Positions 9,442 through 32,351 of a stretch of 64,000 nt of DNA are shown here, one piece after another. Numbering within the stretch: position 1 is the first letter of the stretch; every line of letters begins with the position of its first letter. A program made the translations under genes and the position numbers. The DNA comes from a phage. The stretch lies in sequence record PZ386967.1. The stretch is one strand, 5' to 3'. The notes below the pieces were generated by a model. That model worked only from the letters and a program-made list of their open reading frames with translations, had not been told where the DNA came from and ran no database searches.

Positions 9442-9449
9442 TATTTATA
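9442..9449 (-). promoter_or_regulatory. T4-type late promoter TATAAATA
   Basis: Exact octamer on the minus strand in the 45 bp gap between divergent genes; coordinates approximate. Confidence 0.45.
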
Positions 9450-11884: not shown

Positions 11885-14222
11885 CATGACTCAAAGTACA
11901 GATATCCTGGCCAAATTTGGCAATCTTTTGAAGGAAGCTGACACCCCGGTAGAGGTGGAAGTCCCATTTGAAGTGCGTGATAACGTTACGCACAAACTGA
12001 CTTTCCGCAAAGGTCGCGCCAAGAACTTCCGCTCCATCGGCAATCAGTTCATGGAGATTGATTATCAGCGCAACCCAGCCACCCTTGTCACGTCTGATGA
12101 CAACGGCGCGGGTAAATCCACGATGTTGGTATGGCTGCTGTTCTTCGTACTGTACAACACCACGTACAGTAAGAAGGAGAAGAAGGCAGGCCTGGTTAAC
12201 TCACAAAGCCGCAAGGAATGTGTGGGTGAGGTAGAGTTTGCCTGTCGTGGTAGTGAATGGAAAGTTCGCCGGGGTATCAAGCCCGACTTTGTTGAAGTCT
12301 ACCAGATGGTGGACGGTAAGTGGTTGCAGATCGATAACGAAGCAGCCAAGGCCGACATGAACAAGTACATCGTGAACCTCATCGGTGTAGACCAGAAGAT
12401 GTTTGAGAACTCTCTGGTGCTGGGTAAAGAGAAGTTCATTCCGTTTACGGAGATGTACACTGCCGACCGTCGCGCCATGGTGGAGACAATTTGGGACTTG
12501 GGCTTCTTCAGCCTGATGAACGAAGATGTCAAGGCCGCCATCAAAAAGGCAAATACAACTCTGGACTCCATATCTAACGAATGCGCACTGAAGGTTATTG
12601 ACCACACCAACAAGAAGACGCAGCTTCAGCAGATCGAGCAATCCAACGCTCTGATCCAACAGCAGTCGGCCGATATCCTTGTACAGCAACAGGAAGCCCT
12701 GAATTCCCTGGATGCTGACATCGCTTCCCAGAACGAAGAGCGCAGCCGCCTCACTGCGGTTGAGTTCGAAGCCACCCAGGAAATGAAGACGGTAGAAAAT
12801 CGCCTGAATGATGAATCCATGGTGGAGATCGAGGCTATCAAGAAAGACTTTGATGCCAAGATCCAGGCGGTGAAGGATGCCGCTCAGGAAAAGGCCGATG
12901 ATTATGAGCGCATCGAAGTGTCTACTGCGGAGCATGAACTTCAGGTCTTGCGTGACCGTGCCTTTACAGTGGCCGAAAGCAAGAACACCCTGCTCACCGA
13001 GCGCAACACAAACCTGGACGCCCTGAACGCTGCTATTCAGCGCCGCCAGCAGGGTGAGAACTTCCGCATCAAGTTCCAGACCGAAATGGACGGACATCAG
13101 TCGGCCATCAAGCGCTTCCACGACATGGGGACTTGCCCTACCTGTACCCAACTGGTGTCTGATGACACCAAGGCGCGGATTGAGAGTGAGTACAATCCTC
13201 AGATCCAGGAACTACAGTCGAAGTTAGATCAACTAGACAAAGTTACCGCCGATATCAATGTCCTGATCGATGATCACAAGGCTCAGGATGATAAGTTGGT
13301 TGCTGACATTGCTGTGTTGGACACTGAACTGGATGCAATGCGCAAGCAGGCTGACGAAATCGTTGACAACATCAAGCAGCTGCGCCGTGATATTCAAGGT
13401 TTTCATGATGCTGCCACGATTGAGTGTAATTCACTGAACCGTGAATGTCAACAGAAGATCCTTGACATCCGTAAGGCACTGAACGTTCGTTTTGAAGACA
13501 TCACTGCGTCACTACAACAAACTCGAGAGAATGCCGTCAGCGGGATTAAAGCCGTCGATGATAAGATCGCCGAGCTGAAAGCCCGTCGTGCTCCTCTCGT
13601 GGCGTCTATTGCCGATCTGGAGCGTAAACTGGCTGTACAGCCAACACCTACCACCGACCTGGAGAACTCTATCGCTGCGTTGGAAGGTGAACTGGAGTCT
13701 CTGTATGAACTCCGTGAAGATGCAGATGAGGAACTCCAGGACTTACAGCACCTGCTGTTCTTCTTGAAAGATGACCAGACCAAGGCGCGTATCATCGCCC
13801 TGTATCTGCCATTCCTCAATAGCAAGATCAACGAGTATCTTGAAGCCCTCAACATGTTCTTGGATATCGTTGTTGACGATACCTTTGAGATCACCATGAG
13901 CGCAGCAGGCCGCAAGGGGCAGAGTATCTTCTCCCTGTCTACTGGCCAACGCAGTCGTCTGAACCTGGCTGTGACATTAGCTCTGCGCGATGTGGCTAAC
14001 CTCAAGGCATCGGTGCAATGTAACCTGTTTGTCCTGGATGAAATCCTTGAGAACATGAGCGAGCGCGGGGTGCAGGAATCGGTTGAGATGTTGAAGCATA
14101 AGTTCGGCGGGAACAACCTGTTTGTTATTAGCCAGCGCGAACAGGAGTTCCAAGAATACTTCCAACACAACATTCGCTACGGCCTGCGAAACGGCCTGAC
14201 TGAAGTTATCAAGAAGGATTGA
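11877..14222 (+). CDS. 46: Rad50/SbcC-like recombination ATPase subunit (gp46)
   Basis: Walker A GAGKST, long coiled-coil, zinc hook CPTC, C-terminal ABC signature region. Confidence 0.85.
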   Translation: MHNMTQSTDILAKFGNLLKEADTPVEVEVPFEVRDNVTHKLTFRKGRAKNFRSIGNQFMEIDYQRNPATLVTSDDNGAGKSTMLVWLLFFVLYNTTYSKKEKKAGLVNSQSRKECVGEVEFACRGSEWKVRRGIKPDFVEVYQMVDGKWLQIDNEAAKADMNKYIVNLIGVDQKMFENSLVLGKEKFIPFTEMYTADRRAMVETIWDLGFFSLMNEDVKAAIKKANTTLDSISNECALKVIDHTNKKTQLQQIEQSNALIQQQSADILVQQQEALNSLDADIASQNEERSRLTAVEFEATQEMKTVENRLNDESMVEIEAIKKDFDAKIQAVKDAAQEKADDYERIEVSTAEHELQVLRDRAFTVAESKNTLLTERNTNLDALNAAIQRRQQGENFRIKFQTEMDGHQSAIKRFHDMGTCPTCTQLVSDDTKARIESEYNPQIQELQSKLDQLDKVTADINVLIDDHKAQDDKLVADIAVLDTELDAMRKQADEIVDNIKQLRRDIQGFHDAATIECNSLNRECQQKILDIRKALNVRFEDITASLQQTRENAVSGIKAVDDKIAELKARRAPLVASIADLERKLAVQPTPTTDLENSIAALEGELESLYELREDADEELQDLQHLLFFLKDDQTKARIIALYLPFLNSKINEYLEALNMFLDIVVDDTFEITMSAAGRKGQSIFSLSTGQRSRLNLAVTLALRDVANLKASVQCNLFVLDEILENMSERGVQESVEMLKHKFGGNNLFVISQREQEFQEYFQHNIRYGLRNGLTEVIKKD

Positions 14223-14225
14223 TCA

Positions 14226-14387
14226 TGAACTACGAACAAATTAAACTCGCAATACTGATCTTTGCATGCATCATTGACATCGTTGCGTTTTCTCGTGAAG
14301 TCGAAAGGAAAAACTACCTGAAATCACTGGGGTATCTCGGGTTCTCTGTCTGGTTCTGTTATCTACTTGCAGGTCAAATCCTGAAAT
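14226..14387 (+). CDS. Putative 53-aa membrane peptide
   Basis: Short ORF below the track cutoff with hydrophobic core; ATGA overlap with next gene; coordinates by hand. Confidence 0.25.
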
Positions 14388-14715
14388 GAAAGTCGTCCAC
14401 TTCAAGAAGGAGCCATATGACGTCTACATTGGTCGGCCTGGTAAATGGGGGAACCCGTTTGAGGTCAAAGACCATGGACGAGGCGTCTGTATCGAGCTGT
14501 TTGAGGACGACCTGTATGTGCGCCTGGTTGAAGGGGATATCACTGAGGATGAACTCCTTGAGCTTGACGGGAAGGTATTGGGGTGCTGGTGTAAGCCACG
14601 CCCCTGCCACGGGGATGTTTACGTCAAAGTCATTGGTCGTATTAAACTATTCCGCAAGCTGGGTAAATCCTTTACTGAACACCTGAGACAAACATATGTC
14701 AGAATCAAAAGATGA
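14386..14715 (+). CDS. DUF4326-like protein
   Basis: Motifs GNPF and CWCKPRPCHGDV. Confidence 0.45.
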   Translation: MKVVHFKKEPYDVYIGRPGKWGNPFEVKDHGRGVCIELFEDDLYVRLVEGDITEDELLELDGKVLGCWCKPRPCHGDVYVKVIGRIKLFRKLGKSFTEHLRQTYVRIKR

Positions 14716-14980
14716 AATCCAAGACTCCTGTGACATTGCAGTTGAAACCTGGAACCGTCGGAACCCGCATTACCAGGTGACTGTCACTCCGAATCGTTAT
14801 CTTGAGCAGGGCGGCCTGATTGTGGTTGATGCTGTACTCGCTTTCAACAAGTACCAAGATATGCAGATCCTGGACGGCAACTTTACCGTCGCGACCAAGA
14901 CGGCATGGGATGACCCTCTACAGTTCGTCTACGGCTGGCTGGAGTGTATCGAGGAATCCTACCACCTCATCTACGAATGA
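14696..14980 (+). CDS. Hypothetical protein
   Basis: ORF overlapping end of upstream gene. Confidence 0.4.
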   Translation: MSESKDEIQDSCDIAVETWNRRNPHYQVTVTPNRYLEQGGLIVVDAVLAFNKYQDMQILDGNFTVATKTAWDDPLQFVYGWLECIEESYHLIYE

Positions 14981-15077
14981 GGCTGAAGGGCACTAAATAT
15001 CACGTGCCCTTTATCTTTTAACCCCTGTCAGGAGGCTCAAGCGAGCTGCAAGTCGACAAAACATAAGGAACGCCATC

Positions 15078-15692
15078 ATGACGATGACAACGTTGAAGGC
15101 CATGGCCTTGTCCGTGACCTTTACCATTGCCAGCGGGAATGTGCACGCTTCCCAAAGTACCACCCAATGTGATTATAATTTCTCCGAGCAACAACTCAAT
15201 ACACTGGCAACTGCCTACCATGTAGGCAAGACACAAGACCTTGGTTACACCCTGGCTGCAATATCCTGGCGAGAGAGCCGCGCTGGTGAAGATGTAGTGT
15301 CAATGCGATACGGCCTCAAGGCGGCCAACATGGGAGCCTTTCAGAACAAGGTGAAGACAGTTGGTGATCGCGAAGGTTGTAAGAATCGCAAGTGCTATGC
15401 CAATGTCGCCATAAAGTTGCTGACCGACCAAGAATATGCCGCGCAAGCCGCCCTCGATGAGATGCAGTTCTGGCTGACCTATCACAATCAGAATATCCGC
15501 AAATCCCTCTCCTCTTACAATGCTGGCTTCGCCCGTAATCCTGCATCGAACGCTTATGCTGCCGACGTCGTGAAGAAAGCTAAATATCTTCAGAAATGTG
15601 TGTCTTTCGAAGGCCGGACCATCTCCGAGGTAGATCCTCGGGTGATCGCCATGAACAAGCACACAATAGAGAAACTGAAGAGGACAAGATAA
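15078..15692 (+). CDS. Secreted lytic-transglycosylase-like (SLT domain) protein
   Basis: Signal peptide; AISWRESRAG (E-S catalytic motif) and YNAG motif typical of family 1 lytic transglycosylases. Confidence 0.5.
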   Translation: MTMTTLKAMALSVTFTIASGNVHASQSTTQCDYNFSEQQLNTLATAYHVGKTQDLGYTLAAISWRESRAGEDVVSMRYGLKAANMGAFQNKVKTVGDREGCKNRKCYANVAIKLLTDQEYAAQAALDEMQFWLTYHNQNIRKSLSSYNAGFARNPASNAYAADVVKKAKYLQKCVSFEGRTISEVDPRVIAMNKHTIEKLKRTR

Positions 15693-16330
15693 TGAACATC
15701 ACTCCATCTCAGGCCGGATATGAACATATCTTGGTCTTCATTGCTCTACAGGGTGCGAAGGAAGGCATCATCGTATCCGAGTACTCAGGCACGGTTCGCC
15801 TTGCCGATTATGTCGCACCAGAGGCATTTATCAAGAAGTGTATTGACGCATGGTGTCTCTATGCCCTCAGCACATACCCTGCTCCTCCTGAGGGTGAGCT
15901 GTTGTTTACTGTACCGACTCCGGCTGTTGGGGATACGGATGCCATCTTTGCCGATATGCTGGCGAAGGGGTATCTGGTGTATGACATCACCCACGATGTC
16001 TACTCTTTTACTTCGCTGAACACCGTGTTTGGATTCACCATCACATCTGAAGCCAACATCCCTGACTGGGGTATCTTGGCATGGGGTGTTGACGGCCTGG
16101 GTGCAACCTACGCATCGTCTGACGTCGGTGCAGTTCTGATTGATGAGGGTGTCACCATGGAGCAGTACCTTGCCCAGTTCCCTCAGCACAATATCACAGG
16201 CAGCGACATCATTTTGGTCCAGCCTGGCGCTATCGCTCTCCCCCGTTTGGTGGATGGATGGAATCCTCGGCTGAAGGGCATCATCGCAGGTATTCGATCC
16301 CACATTCCGATTGTGAATCCGACGCCGTAA
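15692..16330 (+). CDS. Hypothetical protein
   Basis: Start trimmed to MNITPSQ; ATGA overlap with upstream gene. Confidence 0.5.
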   Translation: MNITPSQAGYEHILVFIALQGAKEGIIVSEYSGTVRLADYVAPEAFIKKCIDAWCLYALSTYPAPPEGELLFTVPTPAVGDTDAIFADMLAKGYLVYDITHDVYSFTSLNTVFGFTITSEANIPDWGILAWGVDGLGATYASSDVGAVLIDEGVTMEQYLAQFPQHNITGSDIILVQPGAIALPRLVDGWNPRLKGIIAGIRSHIPIVNPTP

Positions 16331-16343
16331 AATAATTCAATAA

Positions 16344-16388
16344 AAGGGGCTTTTGCCCCTTTACTTCTTCAATATCCTTCCCTATACT
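16344..16388 (+). promoter_or_regulatory. Terminator hairpin plus early-type promoter TTTACT-N17-TATACT
   Basis: AGGGGC-tttt-GCCCCT hairpin then TTTACT, 17 nt, TATACT; coordinates approximate. Confidence 0.45.
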
Positions 16389-16436
16389 TCATTCCATAAG
16401 CAACACAACACCAACTTGAAAAGCAGGAACTACACC

Positions 16437-16712
16437 ATGAAAATTATCCTCGACGCATATATCCGCCACGGTCAGAAATACCTGATGGCCAAGGTTTACG
16501 ACGGCGAAGAATTGATCCACGCCCAGACCGCCCCAGCTGCCCAGCTGCGAGAAATCATGTCACGCGACTTCCCTGGTGTTGAAATGGTAGAGCCTACCAA
16601 CCAGGCCGAAGTAGACAAAGAGTGGGAGCGCGAATGGAGTCCAGCGGCTATCGCTCGGGCTGAAAAGAATTGGTCTAACCGCGAAAACGCAAACCGCCCT
16701 TTCCGCCGTTAA
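16437..16712 (+). CDS. Hypothetical protein
   Basis: Start trimmed to MKIILD after CAGGAACTACACC leader. Confidence 0.5.
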   Translation: MKIILDAYIRHGQKYLMAKVYDGEELIHAQTAPAAQLREIMSRDFPGVEMVEPTNQAEVDKEWEREWSPAAIARAEKNWSNRENANRPFRR

Positions 16713-16734
16713 TTTGAACCGAAGGAACTATATC

Positions 16735-17070
16735 ATGACACAACTCAAGAACTTCACCGCCGATGACATGTTTGCCTTCCAGGGTGCTGAGCACTTTGCT
16801 GACGGCTCCGTACCTCGCATCTACTACTTCTCCGACGAAGAAATGGAAGATTTCTTCGCCCTGATGGAAAAGGACTACGAACCAGACGACTTCGTTTATA
16901 TCATCCATCACGCCGAAGGACTGACATTGGGCTGGACGGCCAACAATGAACCAGAAGAAGTAAACTTCCCTGAAGGTATCATGTCAGAGCGCGTCGAATA
17001 TCTACTGGAAGCCCTGGACCCCCACACCCTCCCGCTCTGGGCGATGTCTGTAGCCCAAGTTCAAAAATAA
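16735..17070 (+). CDS. Hypothetical acidic protein
   Basis: Start trimmed to MTQLK after AAGGAACTATATC leader. Confidence 0.5.
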   Translation: MTQLKNFTADDMFAFQGAEHFADGSVPRIYYFSDEEMEDFFALMEKDYEPDDFVYIIHHAEGLTLGWTANNEPEEVNFPEGIMSERVEYLLEALDPHTLPLWAMSVAQVQK

Positions 17071-17145
17071 GATAAGGGGGCTGACGCTCCCTTTTGGTTT
17101 CGCTAATTAGAAGAAACCGCCGTTAATTCAATCAGGAGATATAAA

Positions 17146-20130
17146 ATGTCAAAGCCAAGTTTCCTCCAGTTCATGCAGGAAAGAGATCAGTTGGACGAAG
17201 CGTTCAACTCCGCTCCGTATGAGCTGACCATGGGTAAGAAGAACGCAGGCGATGTGTTCTTCACCTTCGTCGACGAAGATGATAAGGAATACCGCATTCA
17301 GTTCTATACTCCTCAGGGACTGGGCAAGAGCGTTCGTCAGGTTTTCATCGGCCAGAAGCGCGGCTCCGTCTATCCTGACGCCATCGCTCGCTTCAAGAAC
17401 CCAATGCGCGTTATTGCTTCCATGATCGAAGCGACCAAACAATTCATGGCGACTCCTCTGGGCAAAACTATCGATGGCTATGCTGTCAACTTCTCGAAGA
17501 AAGCGCTGGATCGCGGTATGACCCTGATTCCTAAGATCATCCGCCAGTCCGGTCTGAAGCAGAAACTGAATGTCATGGACCTGACCTACGCGCCTGTCCC
17601 TGACCGTGGTTATGTGTGGCTAGTTCGTAAGGGCAAAGATCCGGCTCAGGTATTCGACGGTCCGAAGATGCAGGGTATCACCTGGGATGATCCAGACAAG
17701 GTCGGTGACGTTCCGGTTCAGAACAATACTCCGGATGTGGGTGTGTCATCTTCTGTTGATAATTCCAACGGATGGAAATTAACTTCAAACGGGGATCAGC
17801 CCATGTTGATATGGGCTGGTAAGGAGAGAGGCCGCACGAATACGGCAAATATCGCTCCCCACTACAATGAGCCGGGCGTGTATGTTGGCGCATACATGAA
17901 TGAGAAACCTGTGCGTGGGCAAAGTGCTGATTTCATTGCTCGTCAGTTGAAATTACCACAAGTCCCTATCAGTATCCTGAATGATTTCACCACGGCGTCC
18001 ACAAAATTTTGGAAAGGTTCTCAACAGAAATCTGCGCCTGTTGTGCCGGCAGGTTCGGACAGAAATAACCCAGCCAACATTATCGGTTCTGGAACTGCTG
18101 TTATTGATGCCAAACGGCTTGGTGCTCAGGAAGTAAACGTGGAACGATTCAAAAACGGCGTTCGCATGCGTTCTCGAAACGGTGACGTCGACATCAGTAT
18201 TTCTGACCCAGACTTTTCAAATGCAGCAAGTGCGGCTGATGCTGCCACAGCCTCTGTTGTGGTCAAGAACGGGCGTTACGAAGGTGCCATCAATTCAAAG
18301 CGCAAGATTGCCCGCACCTCGAACGAGCAGGGTACTGAATGGGATATCATCGGTGTCAACGGGGAAACCCTTGTCTCTATCAAGTTGAACAAAGTGTCTA
18401 AATCCACATCAGATTCGACCGAGGGTGCAACCAGTGTTGATCAATTACGTGACAGCGGTTTCATCGCTCGTGTTCTGGGTATCATTGATACCAACGTTGG
18501 GCTGGACACTTCTATTCTTCCTGGTGAAAACATCCGTCGCGTGGGCGCTGGTCGTTACACGACGGCAGGCGGGTTGGTTATCGTTGTCAACTTCACAAAC
18601 GTCCTCGCTGGTTTCGTTCAATACTCAGTTTTCAGCGAAATTGCTGAAGAGGAGAACGTGGCCAAAGGTAGCGCCCGTGACGTCGCCAAGGCGGTAATTG
18701 CGTCCATCTTTGAGGTTGCTAAGACCCAGTACACTGGCAAATGGGAAATTAGCGCAGTGCCAACAAGCGCTCCATATCCTATCAAAGCCATTCGCCGTTC
18801 TCGGGGCTGGGGTTATGTGGAAACCGCAAACTGGACTCTGACAGTGTCCGACGCTGTCCTGAATCGTGTGAAGCCAGGGAACACTGCTCTACTGGAACTC
18901 ATCAAAGAACCTCCGCGTGGCAAGCACCCGCTGGAAATCATCCCAGAGAAGGGCGACAAGACCCTGATGCTGAAAGATCGTATCACCGGGGCCATCTATG
19001 GTTCTATCGACCTGAATGCCCAAGGCGCTGATCTGGTCAACTCTGGAACCCTGAAGATACCAAGCAACGCCATGGTGTTTGGTGAGACTGTCAACGGTAT
19101 GTCCATTCGGTGGGATGTCAATTTCCCCGAAACGGGAAAATACGCCGGTACTTCTATGATAACCAACGTGACCTATTACTACGACAAAGGTAAAGTTGCA
19201 TTCACCCCAATTGTCTCTCAGAAAGGGCGTACCCTGAACAATCCGAAGACATATGAACTTCCTTTAAACAAAGATATGGTCCAGAGTGTGATTGATGAGA
19301 TTTCATCAAAAATGGTATATCTTTCCAGAAACCTCCAACAGTTGAAAAGTCAGTCATACAACCCAAACCAGGTGTTCTTGAACGATATAACCATCACGGA
19401 TAAAGGTGAAGTGATTTGGAATGATTACAACTTGTCTGACGGCAAAGTTACACAAATTATGCTGTCCATGATAAGCGCAGAAAATAAACGCCTGGAGAAA
19501 GTAGCAAACACGCCGGATATCAATATCACATTGCCCAAGAAACAAGCTGAAGTGGTAGAATTTATAAACCGGATGATCGATGTCGATCTCACCCCTTATG
19601 TGAGAACCCCCAAAAAACGTGATGTGGTATTATTTGACTCTTCTGAATTGTCGATAAACCAACTCAACAACATAGAACGCCTGGGAAGAGAAACAGGAAA
19701 ATGGTCTCTTCAGCCAAACGGTGGTATGGGTCATGCACTACTTCTGAAAAGCACGTCGCACAATCCGAAGGACGACCTTGCGGCATACGCCGACTCCATT
19801 CGCGACAACGCACCAAAAGGTCGCGACCTGGATTGGCAGATCTATGCAAGCCGTGATGGTCAGACTCTGAACGTGGACTGGGATATCACCTTCCGCCGCA
19901 ACACAACTGAAGGGGCATATCGCGAGTTCAAAGCTCAGATTGACCGCGCCAACCAGTACCTGCAGACACTGTACCGGGATGCGAAGTCCAAGGGTTACAA
20001 CCCGACTGAACCAAACCTGATGACTCTGGATAGCGCCCAGCAGTCTGACCAGTGGGCACGAGACTACGGGGAAGGCGCATACAGCGAGTACGAGCAGTCC
20101 CTGGGTGGCAACATGCAGATTAAGATCTGA
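17146..20130 (+). CDS. Large hypothetical protein (994 aa)
   Basis: Long uninterrupted ORF; no recognisable catalytic motif. Confidence 0.6.
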   Translation: MSKPSFLQFMQERDQLDEAFNSAPYELTMGKKNAGDVFFTFVDEDDKEYRIQFYTPQGLGKSVRQVFIGQKRGSVYPDAIARFKNPMRVIASMIEATKQFMATPLGKTIDGYAVNFSKKALDRGMTLIPKIIRQSGLKQKLNVMDLTYAPVPDRGYVWLVRKGKDPAQVFDGPKMQGITWDDPDKVGDVPVQNNTPDVGVSSSVDNSNGWKLTSNGDQPMLIWAGKERGRTNTANIAPHYNEPGVYVGAYMNEKPVRGQSADFIARQLKLPQVPISILNDFTTASTKFWKGSQQKSAPVVPAGSDRNNPANIIGSGTAVIDAKRLGAQEVNVERFKNGVRMRSRNGDVDISISDPDFSNAASAADAATASVVVKNGRYEGAINSKRKIARTSNEQGTEWDIIGVNGETLVSIKLNKVSKSTSDSTEGATSVDQLRDSGFIARVLGIIDTNVGLDTSILPGENIRRVGAGRYTTAGGLVIVVNFTNVLAGFVQYSVFSEIAEEENVAKGSARDVAKAVIASIFEVAKTQYTGKWEISAVPTSAPYPIKAIRRSRGWGYVETANWTLTVSDAVLNRVKPGNTALLELIKEPPRGKHPLEIIPEKGDKTLMLKDRITGAIYGSIDLNAQGADLVNSGTLKIPSNAMVFGETVNGMSIRWDVNFPETGKYAGTSMITNVTYYYDKGKVAFTPIVSQKGRTLNNPKTYELPLNKDMVQSVIDEISSKMVYLSRNLQQLKSQSYNPNQVFLNDITITDKGEVIWNDYNLSDGKVTQIMLSMISAENKRLEKVANTPDINITLPKKQAEVVEFINRMIDVDLTPYVRTPKKRDVVLFDSSELSINQLNNIERLGRETGKWSLQPNGGMGHALLLKSTSHNPKDDLAAYADSIRDNAPKGRDLDWQIYASRDGQTLNVDWDITFRRNTTEGAYREFKAQIDRANQYLQTLYRDAKSKGYNPTEPNLMTLDSAQQSDQWARDYGEGAYSEYEQSLGGNMQIKI

Positions 20131-20154: not shown

Positions 20155-20162
20155 TATAAATA
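20155..20162 (+). promoter_or_regulatory. T4-type late promoter TATAAATA
   Basis: Exact octamer about 25 nt upstream of ATG at 20188, after a hairpin terminator; coordinates approximate. Confidence 0.45.
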
Positions 20163-20187: not shown

Positions 20188-20493
20188 ATGAAACCTTTTA
20201 TCGAATATTTTAAAGAACAAGCCGCTCAACCCCAGACCCATGCTGGTGTCCAGGGTAAGACCGTATCCATCACCAAGCAAGCTGACGGCACCCAGTGGTG
20301 TTCCGGCGCTACCGTGACCCAGATTACCCCTGACAATCAGGCGGATGTATATAACCTGGAGTTAACCAACGGCAACACTATCAAGGTGAAGCTGACCCCA
20401 GACCAGACTCACGGTATCTCCCAAGGTCAGGAAGTCGTTGCTGTTCATGACGGCTTCGAATTCTTCTTTGGCAAGTCTATCGACAAAGACTAA
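20188..20493 (+). CDS. Hypothetical late protein
   Basis: ORF with GAGGAG RBS downstream of the TATAAATA element. Confidence 0.5.
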   Translation: MKPFIEYFKEQAAQPQTHAGVQGKTVSITKQADGTQWCSGATVTQITPDNQADVYNLELTNGNTIKVKLTPDQTHGISQGQEVVAVHDGFEFFFGKSIDKD

Positions 20494-23307: not shown

Positions 23308-24102
23308 ATGGCCATTCTAAAACTTGGCAACCGTGGCACTGAAGTGAAGGCACTTCAGAATAGCCTCAACAAAATCGGCTTCACCCTCGTCGCTGATGGT
23401 ATCTTTGGCAAGGCAACAGAGAACGCCGTCAAGACTGTTCAGGCGGGTGCGGGGCTTGTCATTGATGGTATCGTGGGTCCAAAGACCTCCTATGCTATTC
23501 GCAACGCCGGAGACGCCCATCAGGATCATCTAACTGAGTCAGACCTGATTGATGCTGCTAACGATCTGGGTGTTGACCTCGCCTCTGTCAAGGCGGTGAA
23601 TCAGGTTGAGTCGCGCGGCACGGGCTTCACCAAGTCAGGTAAGATCAAGACATTATTTGAGCGCCACATCATGTATAAGAAGCTGATGGCGAAGTTCGGA
23701 CAGGCTCGAGCGAATGCCATGGGACATATGTACCCGACGTTGGTCAGTCCTTCCGCAGGCGGGTACACGGGAGGCGACGCGGAGTTGGATCGACTTCATG
23801 CGGCCATCAACATCGATGAGGATTGTGCGTACGAGAGCGCCTCTTACGGTCTCTTCCAGATCATGGGATTCAACTGCCAGATCTGTGGATATGCCAACGC
23901 CAAGGAGATGTTCAACGACTTCCTGACAGGAGAACGTGCTCATTTGATGGCATTCGTGAAGTTCATCAAGGCTGACGCCAAGCTCTGGCAGGCTCTGAAG
24001 GACAAGAACTGGTCTGAATTTGCACGGCGCTATAATGGTCCGGCGTATGCCAAGAACCAGTACGACAAGAAGCTCGCAGCAGCATACAAGAGTTTCAGTT
24101 AA
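23308..24102 (+). CDS. Endolysin: peptidoglycan-binding domain plus muramidase-like domain
   Basis: N-terminal PG_binding_1-like LKLGNRGTEVKALQNSL..GIFGKATENAV; C-terminal NWSEFARRYNGPAYAKNQYDKKL typical of phage muramidase (DUF3380-type) endolysins. Confidence 0.75.
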   Translation: MAILKLGNRGTEVKALQNSLNKIGFTLVADGIFGKATENAVKTVQAGAGLVIDGIVGPKTSYAIRNAGDAHQDHLTESDLIDAANDLGVDLASVKAVNQVESRGTGFTKSGKIKTLFERHIMYKKLMAKFGQARANAMGHMYPTLVSPSAGGYTGGDAELDRLHAAINIDEDCAYESASYGLFQIMGFNCQICGYANAKEMFNDFLTGERAHLMAFVKFIKADAKLWQALKDKNWSEFARRYNGPAYAKNQYDKKLAAAYKSFS

Positions 24103-30740: not shown

Positions 30741-32351
30741 TTACTCTTTGGTGCCGAAATTACCACCATTGTCTTTTAATTCTGCCTTGATGTCAATCTC
30801 ACCCGGACCCGTAGGGGATGCAGGGGTTGCACCTGACAGAGAAGAAGCGCGACCAGCACCTTCGGCATATATGATGTTACCATTGATCGTCTGAGCGACA
30901 GTCAGTTTGTCAGCGATTATCTCAGTCGTTAGAATCTTAGGAACCTTCAATGTCCCACCGACCTCCAGAGTCTCGCAGATAATGCGCAGAATATTCTGCG
31001 CTTGCATTTCCGCTAGGTCACTGAATTTCATCAGCGCTGTGCCCGCAACCACGTTGGAGTAATTGTTGGAATGCAAATGATAGACCTCACCTGTCTTGCG
31101 CTGAACTTCAGTTCCTTTGACCGTCAGGTTGTGGTCCCCGCCGACATAATAACGCTTGTTGAACATCGTCAGGTCATAGTGGTCTTTGACGGACTTGTTG
31201 ACCACATCACCATCCGGCAACATTTGCTTGTAAGACCCAGACTTATGCATCCAGTGAAGACGTTCACCACCAGGGGTGTCGTCCACTTCCATAATATGCC
31301 CAGCTCGGGACACCATGACGTTATTGTACGGGTATTTAGATCCACCCGCAGCCGGAACCATGGTTTCTCCAGTGTTGTCAATATCCTGTACTCGCCCAGT
31401 AGGAGCCGGAGTCGGTTGTTCCTTTGGGGTACGATCTGGGATAGGTTCTGACCATTTACCATTCTGCTGCGCAGGCGCGGCTGTGGCTGTGTTAGCAGGA
31501 CCAGGCCAACGATATCCCAAGACCGAAGAACGTCTGAAACGACTGACCTTCACTGAATCGGATTGGTTGCCACCAATACACCAGACATAGTTTGCATCGA
31601 ACTTCTGCACAAACGCTACGTGTCCAAATGTGGGGTTGTTACCACGCCGGAAGACTACGATAGCGCCATATTGTGGTGCTGACAGTGCAGTACCCCATGT
31701 AAGGTAAGATCGGGCAAGAGCGGAGCGTGTAGACGTGTATCCAGCCTGTATCATAACCCAACCCACGAACGCCGCACACCACGACACTTCATCTTCAGAA
31801 GCACCAAGGGAGGTTGTCTTGTGATATTCTATAATGCGCGGGTTGTTGTTGAACTTTCCGGCATACTCCTTGATACCTAATTCGCCACGAGCGATTGTCA
31901 TCCACTTCTCTGGATCATACCCACCAACAGGTGGTTGTGGATCTGGTTGTGGTTCGTCTTCTTGTTTCACAGGAACGTCAGTGACAGCGTTGTACGCCTG
32001 ACGTTCTACAGATTGAACGACCTGCCCGAGAGCCAGTGGGTTTGTGTCGGCGCCATCAGTAGGACTTGAACCAGTCCAAGTCCAGGTGATGCGTAAATTC
32101 TGGTATGCTTCGTCAAGGGCGAACCCCATAACCTCAGTACCAGGAATGATACCCGTTGGAGACCAACCTAAACCAGCAGAGGAGGCGTTAGAAGCAGGCA
32201 TCAGTACCTTCGCCCACGGGAGTTTGTCTGTAGGCAGGAGGACGGGATCGTCGGTGTGTACGCCATAGATGCGGACGGCGACGCGCCCGTTTTGGTCTGG
32301 ATCGTTGACATCTTCAACGGTGCCGTAAAACCATCTCATATTGTCTAACAT
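30741..32351 (-). CDS. 5: Baseplate central spike gp5-like with CHAP peptidase domain
   Basis: N-terminal OB-fold spike motif (VEDVNDPDQNGRVAVRIYG); central CHAP-like Cys/His pair (SWCAAFVGWV and GHVAFV). Confidence 0.7.
   Translation of the reverse strand: MLDNMRWFYGTVEDVNDPDQNGRVAVRIYGVHTDDPVLLPTDKLPWAKVLMPASNASSAGLGWSPTGIIPGTEVMGFALDEAYQNLRITWTWTGSSPTDGADTNPLALGQVVQSVERQAYNAVTDVPVKQEDEPQPDPQPPVGGYDPEKWMTIARGELGIKEYAGKFNNNPRIIEYHKTTSLGASEDEVSWCAAFVGWVMIQAGYTSTRSALARSYLTWGTALSAPQYGAIVVFRRGNNPTFGHVAFVQKFDANYVWCIGGNQSDSVKVSRFRRSSVLGYRWPGPANTATAAPAQQNGKWSEPIPDRTPKEQPTPAPTGRVQDIDNTGETMVPAAGGSKYPYNNVMVSRAGHIMEVDDTPGGERLHWMHKSGSYKQMLPDGDVVNKSVKDHYDLTMFNKRYYVGGDHNLTVKGTEVQRKTGEVYHLHSNNYSNVVAGTALMKFSDLAEMQAQNILRIICETLEVGGTLKVPKILTTEIIADKLTVAQTINGNIIYAEGAGRASSLSGATPASPTGPGEIDIKAELKDNGGNFGTKE

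What the first reader, a model, noticed from the sequence alone, without database searches (positions are those of the whole stretch)
15078..16330. Secreted SLT-domain protein separate from the endolysin: several distinct peptidoglycan hydrolases
Besides the modular endolysin (23308-24102) and the CHAP-containing spike (30741-32351), there is a signal-peptide protein with E-S and YNAG lytic-transglycosylase motifs. A Sec-exported transglycosylase expressed independently of lysis is unusual and could remodel the wall during infection or aid lysis from without.
Basis: partly seen in the sequence, partly recalled or inferred. Interest (0 to 1): 0.4.

Follow-up and report, generated by a model that had tools for sequence, protein, structure and literature searches.

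The report
Phage T4 Vs.1-type exported wall-cutting enzyme
The flagged stretch holds two separate genes of an Ackermannviridae phage; the first is the counterpart of phage T4 gene vs.1, a small exported enzyme of the lytic-transglycosylase type that thousands of large phages carry, so it is a familiar gene whose biological role is still untested.

Summary

Gene 1 is the Ackermannviridae orthologue of T4 Vs.1 (phrog_600; 29% identity, pairwise E 4e-18). The catalytic Glu is invariant in 95 of 95 diverse relatives. 87 of 95 carry an N-terminal hydrophobic leader, and two cysteine pairs co-occur, which fits export to the periplasm. tblastn finds relatives in 2128 of 50,697 phage records, including T4-like and Felix O1-like phages.

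The window's endolysin and CHAP-bearing hub are confirmed. T4 has a matching set of three wall enzymes, so the arrangement is normal, not unusual. Many public records wrongly name this protein "RegB". The SLT similarity of vs.1 was published in 2006. Its role is unknown, although T4 vs.1 knock-down was scored "Semi-Fit".

Verdict: already known, low to moderate interest.

The parts
15078..15692 (+). vs.1-like gene: 204-aa precursor (22.7 kDa, pI 9.5) of an exported single-domain SLT/GH23-type lytic transglycosylase; the coordinates include the TAA stop
15065..15069 (+). Shine-Dalgarno-like AAGGA, 8 nt before the ATG
   Evidence: Read from the sequence.
15078..15149 (+). Predicted Sec signal peptide, residues 1-24 (K7; uncharged core A8-G20; V-H-A before the predicted cut A24|S25); there is no lipobox
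   Evidence: Sequence. Relatives keep small residues at -3 and -1 (VHA, VNA, ANA, ATA). 87 of 95 family members have an N-terminal hydrophobic run. The AF2 model is disordered over residues 2-27. This is a heuristic reading; no SignalP-type predictor was available.
15273..15278 (+). Codons for E66-S67, the predicted catalytic Glu of the E-S motif
   Evidence: E66 is invariant in 95 of 95 and S/T67 in 95 of 95. The profile alignment places AIAWkES on EtgA AIAWNES and on g-type lysozyme AAIISRES.
15333..15344 (+). G86-A-F-Q89, the counterpart of the G-L-M-Q motif of family 1 lytic transglycosylases
   Evidence: G86 in 92 of 95; F/Y88 in 79 of 95; Q/H89 in 87 of 95. It aligns to EtgA G-I-M-Q.
15513..15527 (+). 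S146-Y-N-A-G150, the A-Y-N-x-G-type motif
   Evidence: Y147 and G150 are invariant in 95 of 95 and N148 is present in 84 of 95. It aligns to EtgA AYNAGY and MltD AAYNAG.
15168..15599 (+). Span holding the four cysteines C31, C101, C106 and C174, inferred to form two disulfides (C31-C174 and C101-C106)
   Evidence: Co-occurrence among 95 relatives: C31/C174 both 52, neither 37, one only 6 (Fisher p 2e-19, not corrected for phylogeny); C101/C106 both 12, neither 82, one only 1. The disulfides themselves are inferred.
15600..15689 (+). Basic C-terminal extension of 30 residues (175-204, pI 10.3, two short helices). Among the relatives examined it was seen aligned only in the closer ones (A1 members at 50% identity or more); T4 Vs.1 and most family members are shorter
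   Evidence: Alignment A1; AF2 helices 187-192 and 194-201; member lengths; pI.
14984..15019 (+). Terminator-like hairpin with a U-rich tail between the upstream gene (14696-14980) and the vs.1-like gene
   Evidence: RNA fold -17.3 kcal/mol, z -3.3. The sequence is identical in LIMEstone1.
15692..16330 (+).
16343..16362 (+). Hairpin after the DUF7270 gene that closes the two-gene unit
   Evidence: RNA fold -14.2 kcal/mol, z -4.0. The equivalent site is annotated as a terminator in LIMEstone1.
23308..24102 (+). Context: the phage endolysin (PG_binding_1 plus N-acetylmuramidase PF11860)
   Evidence: LIMEstone1 ORF070, 'putative endolysin', has the same length.
30741..32351 (-). Context: gp5-like baseplate hub carrying a CHAP peptidase domain
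   Evidence: Gp5_OB E 1.9e-12, CHAP E 6e-11, phrog_430 E 1.8e-154.

Best explanation
Gene 15078-15692 is the Ackermannviridae orthologue of phage T4 vs.1. It encodes a small precursor whose N-terminal Sec signal peptide is cut after A24. This releases a soluble, basic, roughly 20-kDa periplasmic protein stabilised by two disulfides. The protein has the GH23/SLT lysozyme-like fold with a single catalytic glutamate (E66). It most likely acts as a lytic transglycosylase: it would cleave the MurNAc-GlcNAc bonds of the host's own peptidoglycan from the periplasmic side and produce 1,6-anhydro-MurNAc ends. It would do this during infection without needing the holin. It would be an accessory, non-essential but fitness-enhancing wall-remodelling step, separate from the cytoplasmic endolysin that needs a holin and from the virion-borne CHAP hub used at entry. 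Shown here: the gene, the fold, the motifs and their conservation, homology to T4 Vs.1, and the separateness of the neighbouring DUF7270 gene. Inferred: export and cleavage site, disulfides, catalytic activity and product, timing, and physiological role.
Against: I found no biochemical test for any family member. The window protein falls just below Pfam's SLT cut-off (20.3 against 21.3 bits), and Foldseek E-values against the PDB are weak (0.012). The signal peptide was judged by rule of thumb only, and its hydrophobic core is weak (rich in A/S/T/G; Kyte-Doolittle 1.85 over 11 residues). I could not read the model's coordinates, so the cysteine distances and active-site geometry are unchecked. 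Timing in this phage is unknown. No sigma-70 or TATAAATA promoter lies in the 64 nt upstream. The gene is coupled to a virion-protein gene, so it may be expressed late rather than early. From general knowledge, T4 e mutants do not lyse although they carry vs.1, so any activity must be limited.
Confidence: 0.62

Rival explanations
1. It is a signal-anchor-release (SAR) type secondary endolysin. The weakly hydrophobic N-terminus would hold the enzyme inactive in the inner membrane until the holin depolarises the membrane, so it would act only at lysis as a back-up or booster to the main endolysin.
For: The leader core AMALSVTFTIASG is rich in Ala, Ser, Thr and Gly and only moderately hydrophobic (maximum Kyte-Doolittle 1.85), as SAR domains are. 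The uncharged stretch A8-A24 is 17 residues long. In this phage the gene is co-transcribed with a virion-protein gene, which would fit late expression.
Against: V-H-A|S is a good signal-peptidase site and is kept in relatives. Most family members have strongly hydrophobic classical leaders such as MKKLLLVLLFVFLPAVSYSA. The gene is not in a lysis cassette: its neighbours are recombination and virion genes, and the endolysin lies 7.6 kb away. T4 vs.1 is classed early/middle. From general knowledge, T4 e mutants do not lyse.
Confidence: 0.1
2. It is an exported lysozyme-fold protein with a non-lytic role. It might bind peptidoglycan, or block the wall-degrading hub enzyme of superinfecting phages as T4 Spackle does, rather than cutting the wall itself.
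For: Periplasmic location. T4 expresses its copy early/middle, when superinfection exclusion acts. The knock-down phenotype is mild.
Against: The catalytic Glu and the substrate-groove motifs are invariant in 95 of 95 relatives, which is what an enzyme would show. Chromosomal copies exist in Helicobacter in housekeeping contexts, where an anti-phage decoy role makes little sense.
Confidence: 0.1
3. It is a virion-associated wall enzyme that helps entry or causes lysis from without.
For: It lies next to a cluster of virion-protein genes, and the gene immediately downstream encodes a virion protein in LIMEstone1.
Against: LIMEstone1 ORF086 (95% identical) is not among the 39 virion proteins found by mass spectrometry. 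The 22.75-kDa entry in that table matches ORF085, not ORF086 at 22.78 kDa. A Sec leader sends the protein out of the cytoplasm, where heads and tails assemble. The hub already carries a CHAP domain.
Confidence: 0.03
4. It is a RegB-type endoribonuclease, as many public records name it.
For: Source names 'RegB site-specific RNA endonuclease' and 'endoribonuclease RegB family protein' are attached to close homologues.
Against: There is no similarity to T4 RegB (BLASTP E 0.25). There is no Pfam REGB_T4 match, whereas T4 RegB scores 8.1e-69. No PDB sequence match of any kind was found at E up to 10. The name probably spread because vs.1 and regB are adjacent in T4.
Confidence: 0.01

Closest known systems
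Phage T4 Vs.1 (gene vs.1, T4p112, UniProt P13311; PHROG 600)
   Same: Orthologous family: 29% identity over 171 aa, pairwise E 4e-18. Both have a hydrophobic N-terminal leader followed by a single SLT-like domain with E-S, G-x-F-Q and S-Y-N-x-G motifs, and both are of similar size (181 against 204 aa). Neither is in a lysis cassette.
   Different: The window protein has four cysteines in two co-occurring pairs and a 30-residue basic C-terminal tail, both absent from T4 Vs.1. The neighbours differ: regB and vs in T4, against gp46/47 and DUF7270 here. The function of T4 Vs.1 is itself unknown.
EtgA / IpgF / IagB / VirB1-type specialised lytic transglycosylases of secretion systems (PDB 8URN, 4XP8)
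   Different: Those enzymes are encoded in secretion-system clusters and are recruited by rod proteins. Here the context is a phage genome, and no partner is evident. EtgA has a second acidic residue (D60), while this protein has N84 at that position.
Family 1 lytic transglycosylases Slt70, MltF, MltC, MltD and MltE (Pfam SLT PF01464, CAZy GH23)
   Different: The bacterial enzymes are larger and multi-domain, or are lipoproteins. This one is the bare domain with a cleavable leader and no lipobox. The window sequence scores just under Pfam's cut-off.
Goose-type lysozyme (GH23 hydrolase)
   Different: From general knowledge, g-type lysozymes use additional Asp residues and hydrolyse the bond. 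No conserved second carboxylate is seen here.
Phage SAR endolysins and virion transglycosylases (P1 Lyz and R21 recalled from general knowledge; phiKZ gp144 and T7 gp16 appear)
   Different: This gene is not in a lysis cassette. It has a predicted cleavable leader rather than a releasable anchor, and it was not found in virions.

Membership tests
SLT / GH23 family 1 lytic transglycosylases | Lysozyme-like, mostly alpha-helical catalytic fold | tested here: met
   [not shown]
SLT / GH23 family 1 lytic transglycosylases | Catalytic Glu in an E-S motif | tested here: met
   E66-S67 is present. E is invariant in 95 of 95 and S/T in 95 of 95. It aligns to the E-S of EtgA and g-type lysozyme.
SLT / GH23 family 1 lytic transglycosylases | G-L-M-Q and A-Y-N-x-G substrate-groove motifs | tested here: met
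   G86-A-F-Q89 and S146-Y-N-A-G150 are present. G86 occurs in 92 of 95, and Y147 and G150 in 95 of 95.
SLT / GH23 family 1 lytic transglycosylases | Score above Pfam PF01464 gathering threshold | tested here: inconclusive
   The window protein scores 20.3 bits against a cut-off of 21.3 (E 4e-4). T4 Vs.1 scores 25.1 bits. 54 of 95 relatives match at E <= 0.01.
SLT / GH23 family 1 lytic transglycosylases | Non-hydrolytic cleavage giving 1,6-anhydro-MurNAc products | not testable with these tools
   This needs purified protein, sacculi and LC-MS of the muropeptides.
T4 Vs.1 family (PHROG 600) | Full-length match to the family profile and to T4 Vs.1 itself | tested here: met
   phrog_600 E 1.8e-59 over residues 7-179. 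BLASTP to T4 Vs.1 E 4e-18. tblastn hits annotated vs.1 genes in T4T, VR7 and Acj61.
T4 Vs.1 family (PHROG 600) | N-terminal export leader followed by a single domain | tested here: met
   87 of 95 relatives have an N-terminal hydrophobic run, and members are typically 160-205 aa. This is a heuristic, not a trained predictor.
Sec-exported soluble periplasmic protein | n-h-c signal peptide with small residues at -3 and -1, and no lipobox | tested here: inconclusive
   K7, core A8-G20, V22-H-A24|S25, and no L-x-x-C lipobox. The -3/-1 pattern is conserved in relatives. No SignalP-type tool and no experiment were available.
RegB endoribonuclease (name carried by many public homologues) | Match to Pfam REGB_T4 (PF10715) or to T4 RegB | tested here: not met
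   No PF10715 hit at E <= 0.1. T4 RegB itself scores 8.1e-69. BLASTP against T4 RegB gives E 0.25.
Phage endolysin (canonical or SAR) | Placement in a lysis cassette; dependence on a holin, or a SAR anchor without a cleavage site | tested here: not met
   The neighbours are gp46/47, a DUF4326 protein and virion-protein genes. The true endolysin is at 23308-24102. The leader has a conserved A-x-A-type site. Holin dependence was not testable.
Secretion-system specialised transglycosylases (EtgA type) | Encoded within, and recruited by, a secretion, pilus or flagellar apparatus | tested here: not met
   The context is a phage genome. The H. pullorum chromosomal homologue lies between a two-component system and an Asp/Glu racemase gene and rho, not in a secretion cluster.

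The most novel reading that the evidence does not exclude
The Vs.1 family could be a conserved, holin-independent 'fourth wall enzyme' of large virulent myoviruses. Such an enzyme would be exported before lysis. It would recondition the host sacculus, for example by thinning or opening it so that holin-triggered lysis is fast, by allowing the infected cell to enlarge, or by releasing anhydro-muropeptide signals. In Ackermannviridae it would be co-expressed with a virion protein (DUF7270). That would explain why T4 vs.1 knock-down costs fitness although the gene has no known function.
Probability: 0.15. Interest if true: 0.5.

Novelty: already known. Interest (0 to 1): 0.22.

Why it matters
As annotation, the result corrects the record. 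The interval holds two genes. The first is a Vs.1-type exported SLT-fold protein, not RegB as many GenBank entries say. The second is a virion protein (by its LIMEstone1 homologue). As biology, it points to a small but real gap. A predicted periplasmic wall-cleaving enzyme occurs in over two thousand sequenced phages, including T4. In T4 it is classed early/middle, and its knock-down was scored 'Semi-Fit'. It still has no demonstrated activity or role. The question could be addressed directly in T4, but nothing in this window adds to what the family already poses.

Tried and rejected
1. phmmer of the single protein against PDB sequences found nothing at E <= 10. A 95-sequence profile was needed to reach EtgA.

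2. NCBIfam gave no hit for either gene.

4. The search for related loci on bacterial genomes failed twice because the alignments lacked a sufficiently conserved stretch. With the single protein it found no relative. A narrower alignment of distant members then found 39 loci, mostly enterohepatic Helicobacter and Wolinella.

5. Promoter search. The consensus scan found no plus-strand sigma-70-like site upstream of 15078. There is no exact TATAAATA near the gene; the three in the window are at 9442, 20155 and 38499. With two mismatches allowed, the only match is ACTAAATA, inside the hairpin loop. The 'putative late promoter' annotated in LIMEstone1 corresponds to TATGAATG there and TACGAATG here, which is not convincing. 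Timing therefore remains open.

6. I found no Ackermannviridae transcriptome in the library, and the T4 genome review (PMC150520) is not held.

7. Is DUF7270 a functional partner, such as an inhibitor or immunity protein, of the transglycosylase? I rejected this as unsupported. It has no leader, it is a virion protein in LIMEstone1, and it shows only weak winged-helix-like fold matches. In a divergent relative a 120-aa gene separates the two genes, and in another the next gene has no DUF7270 hit on record.

8. Capsid-targeting sequence instead of a signal peptide? I rejected this. From general knowledge, T4 internal proteins carry a short N-terminal targeting peptide ending in L/I-x-E. No such motif is present here, and the protein is absent from virions.

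Full report
**What is at the coordinates**

The window is from an Ackermannviridae phage. The region 14000-17200 is 96-97% identical in DNA to Salmonella phage vB_CECAV_050 and Escherichia phage A221, and 94% identical to Shigella phage Ag3 (Agtrevirus).

The interval 15078-16330 is not one gene. It holds two genes on the plus strand:
- **Gene 1, 15078-15692.** It starts at an ATG preceded by AAGGA 8 nt upstream, ends at TAA, and encodes 204 aa.
- **Gene 2, 15692-16330.** It encodes 212 aa, and its ATG shares one base with the stop codon of gene 1 (TAATG). Pfam calls it DUF7270 (E 7.5e-110) and PHROGs calls it phrog_3923.

**Gene 1 is a lysozyme-fold, SLT-type protein**

- Pfam SLT matches residues 57-162 at E 4e-4. 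The score of 20.3 bits is just under the curated cut-off of 21.3.
- phrog_600 ('unknown function') matches over the full length at E 1.8e-59.
- An AlphaFold2 model built on 17 homologues is confident: mean pLDDT 86, pTM 0.81. Only residues 2-27 are disordered.
- The top Foldseek hits are the same kinds of protein, but the E-values are weak (0.012).
- A profile of 95 diverse relatives finds the type III secretion transglycosylase EtgA among PDB sequences (E 2.8e-7). The family's AIAWkES aligns to EtgA AIAWNES, and SYNAGY to AYNAGY.

Conservation across those 95 sequences (mean column identity 23%) is as follows:

| Residue | Conservation |
|---|---|
| E66, Y147, G150, Y160, Q39 | invariant, 95 of 95 |
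| S/T67 | 95 of 95 |
| G86 | 92 of 95 |
| W132 | 91 of 95 |

The position matching EtgA's second acidic residue (D60) is N84 here. Across the family it is variable: S 53, D 19, A 13, N 6. A single conserved carboxylate fits the lytic-transglycosylase mechanism better than a two-carboxylate lysozyme mechanism. This is an inference, not a measurement.

**Evidence for export**

- The N-terminus, MTMTTLKAMALSVTFTIASGNVHA|SQ, has a basic residue, a 13-residue uncharged core, and V and A at positions -3 and -1.
- Close and distant relatives keep this pattern (VHA, VNA, ANA, ATA, VQA).
- 87 of 95 family members begin with a hydrophobic run, and most are classical MKK-LLL-AxA leaders.
- There is no lipobox.
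- The four cysteines form two co-occurring pairs across the family. For C31/C174, both are present in 52, neither in 37, and one only in 6 (Fisher p 2e-19, not corrected for phylogeny). For C101/C106 the counts are 12, 82 and 1. That pattern is expected for disulfides in an oxidising compartment.

No signal-peptide predictor was available, and I could not read the model's coordinates to measure cysteine distances. Export, the cleavage site and the disulfides therefore remain inferences. The predicted mature protein is about 20.3 kDa with pI 9.4.

**Family identity**

The protein is the orthologue of phage T4 Vs.1. Ag3's record already says so. tblastn hits annotated vs.1 genes of T4T, VR7 and Acj61. 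Direct BLASTP against T4 Vs.1 gives 29% identity over 171 residues at E 4e-18. T4 Vs.1 itself passes Pfam's SLT cut-off (25.1 bits).

Relatives occur in 2128 of 50,697 phage records. These include T4-like phages and other Ackermannviridae. They also include roughly 86-kb Salmonella and Escherichia phages, which I take to be Felix O1-like. The Ag3 record cites a Felix 01 protein as similar. Large Vibrio phages are also among the hits.

An exhaustive profile search finds 821 clusters at 50% identity with E <= 1e-3, mostly proteins of 160-200 aa.

The family is not confined to phages. 39 bacterial loci were found, mostly enterohepatic Helicobacter and Wolinella. In H. pullorum the gene sits among housekeeping genes, between a two-component system on one side and an Asp/Glu racemase gene and rho on the other. 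A Pseudoalteromonas copy lies in a T4-like phage region.

**A widespread misannotation**

Many public homologues are named 'RegB' endoribonuclease, including the 95%-identical LIMEstone1 ORF086. This name is wrong. There is no Pfam REGB_T4 match, BLASTP against T4 RegB gives E 0.25, and genuine RegB scores 8.1e-69 on that model. In T4, vs.1 and regB are adjacent, which probably seeded the error. Other records truncate the gene and lose the leader (A221, Ag3). One record names it MltF-like.

**Genomic context and expression**

Upstream lie gp47, gp46, a small membrane protein, a DUF4326/NrdA.1-like gene and phrog_4165, all on the plus strand. A terminator-like hairpin with a U-rich tail follows at 14984-15019 (-17.3 kcal/mol, z -3.3). 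A second hairpin follows gene 2 at 16343-16362 (-14.2 kcal/mol, z -4.0). The equivalent of the second hairpin is annotated as a terminator in LIMEstone1. Genes 1 and 2 therefore look like a two-gene unit.

I could not find a convincing promoter for it. The late promoter that the LIMEstone1 authors predicted reads TATGAATG there and TACGAATG here.

**Gene 2 (DUF7270)**

- It has no leader and is acidic (pI 4.4).
- Its LIMEstone1 homologue, ORF085, was detected in purified virions with 4 peptides and 17% coverage. The tabulated mass of 22.75 kDa matches ORF085 and not ORF086, which is 22.78 kDa.
- ORF086, the Vs.1 homologue, is not among the 39 virion proteins.
- The pairing with gene 1 is syntenic, not fixed. 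A divergent relative has a 120-aa gene between the two, and another has a different downstream gene.

I see no evidence that the two proteins work together.

**The other wall enzymes in the window**

- 23293/23308-24102 is a modular endolysin, with PG_binding_1 and Muramidase PF11860 (E 6.7e-59).
- 30741-32351 (minus strand) is a gp5-like hub with a CHAP domain (E 6e-11).

So the phage does encode three distinct peptidoglycan-degrading modules. From general knowledge, T4 has a comparable three: e, the gp5 lysozyme domain, and Vs.1. The arrangement is typical of this kind of phage rather than unusual.

**What the literature says**

- Nolan et al. 2006 reported that vs.1 is conserved in T4-like phages. 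[quoted passage not shown] They noted an earlier PSI-BLAST link to lysozyme (PMC1524935).
- A time-resolved omics study classes T4 vs.1 as early at the RNA level and middle at the protein level (PMC9697503 supplement).
- The CRISPRi-ART screen lists vs.1 (phrog_600, 'unknown function') among five 'Semi-Fit' T4 genes of purely unknown function. The score is 0.81 with KS p 0.10, and neighbouring regB and vs are 'Not Fit' (PMC11879866 supplement).
- I found no biochemical or genetic study of the protein's activity.

**Most likely mechanism**

The precursor is exported by the Sec system and cleaved after A24. The soluble periplasmic domain uses E66 to cleave glycan strands of the host sacculus without needing the holin. 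I commit to a limited, accessory wall-remodelling role that improves phage fitness.

My confidence by step:

| Step | Confidence |
|---|---|
| Exported SLT-fold Vs.1 orthologue | about 0.9 |
| Active lytic transglycosylase | about 0.65 |
| The specific physiological role | low |

The activity must be modest, because (from general knowledge) T4 e mutants fail to lyse despite carrying vs.1.

Rival explanations, with confidence:
- SAR-type secondary endolysin acting only at lysis: 0.10.
- Non-catalytic periplasmic binder or superinfection factor: 0.10.
- Virion enzyme: 0.03.
- RegB endoribonuclease: 0.01.

**Verdict**

The gene is an already-known family member, 99% identical to a deposited phage protein. 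The only open question is the untested role of the Vs.1 family as a whole. Interest is low to moderate.

Noticed in passing
[not shown]
   Followed up: partly
window 17146-20130 (+): A single 994-aa ORF (phrog_3867, with a short 'internal head protein' hit at residues 796-851). It corresponds to several separate genes in relatives: LIMEstone1 ORF082 and ORF081, and possibly ORF080 (all confirmed virion proteins; ORF081 had 55% coverage), and Ag3 orf110, orf110.1, orf109 and orf107. A221 has a 906-aa version. This could be a fused polyprotein in this lineage, or frameshifted or mis-split annotation in the others.
   Followed up: partly
public records homologous to window 15078-15692: Annotation of this gene is inconsistent and often wrong. 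It is named 'RegB' in LIMEstone1, Maynard, Coodle, barely and others. It is truncated and lacks the leader in A221 (489 nt) and Ag3 (390 nt plus a separate 135-nt ORF). It is 'MltF-like' in pSal-SNUABM-02 and 'Vs.1' in Ag3.
   Followed up: yes
L025 5983-6708 (Helicobacter pullorum) and loci L007-L041: Chromosomal members of the Vs.1 family occur in many enterohepatic Helicobacter and Wolinella genomes. In H. pullorum the gene lies between a two-component system and an Asp/Glu racemase gene and rho, so it looks like a housekeeping periplasmic enzyme rather than prophage cargo. The direction of transfer between phage and host is unknown.
   Followed up: partly
window 15600-15689 (+): The vs.1-like protein has a basic 30-residue C-terminal tail (pI 10.3, two short predicted helices, ending KLKRTR). 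It is absent from T4 Vs.1, and most family members are shorter. It might bind the membrane, LPS or the wall.
   Followed up: no
window 14386-14715 (+): A DUF4326 / T4 NrdA.1-like gene (E 1.4e-23) lies two genes upstream. It keeps its position next to gp46/47 in all the Ackermannviridae loci examined.
   Followed up: no
window 20155-20162 (+): One of only three exact T4-type late-promoter motifs (TATAAATA) in the window lies 26 nt upstream of the ORF at 20188-20493. In LIMEstone1 a late promoter is annotated upstream of the confirmed virion protein ORF078 in the same gene neighbourhood; I did not compare ORF078 with the 20188-20493 ORF.
   Followed up: no
window 14984-15019, 16343-16362, 17074-17093 (+): Strong hairpins follow several short genes in this region. 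The Ag3 paper reports 40 intergenic rho-independent terminators in its genome. They may act as attenuators or RNA-stability elements rather than full stops, since no promoters are evident between them.
   Followed up: partly
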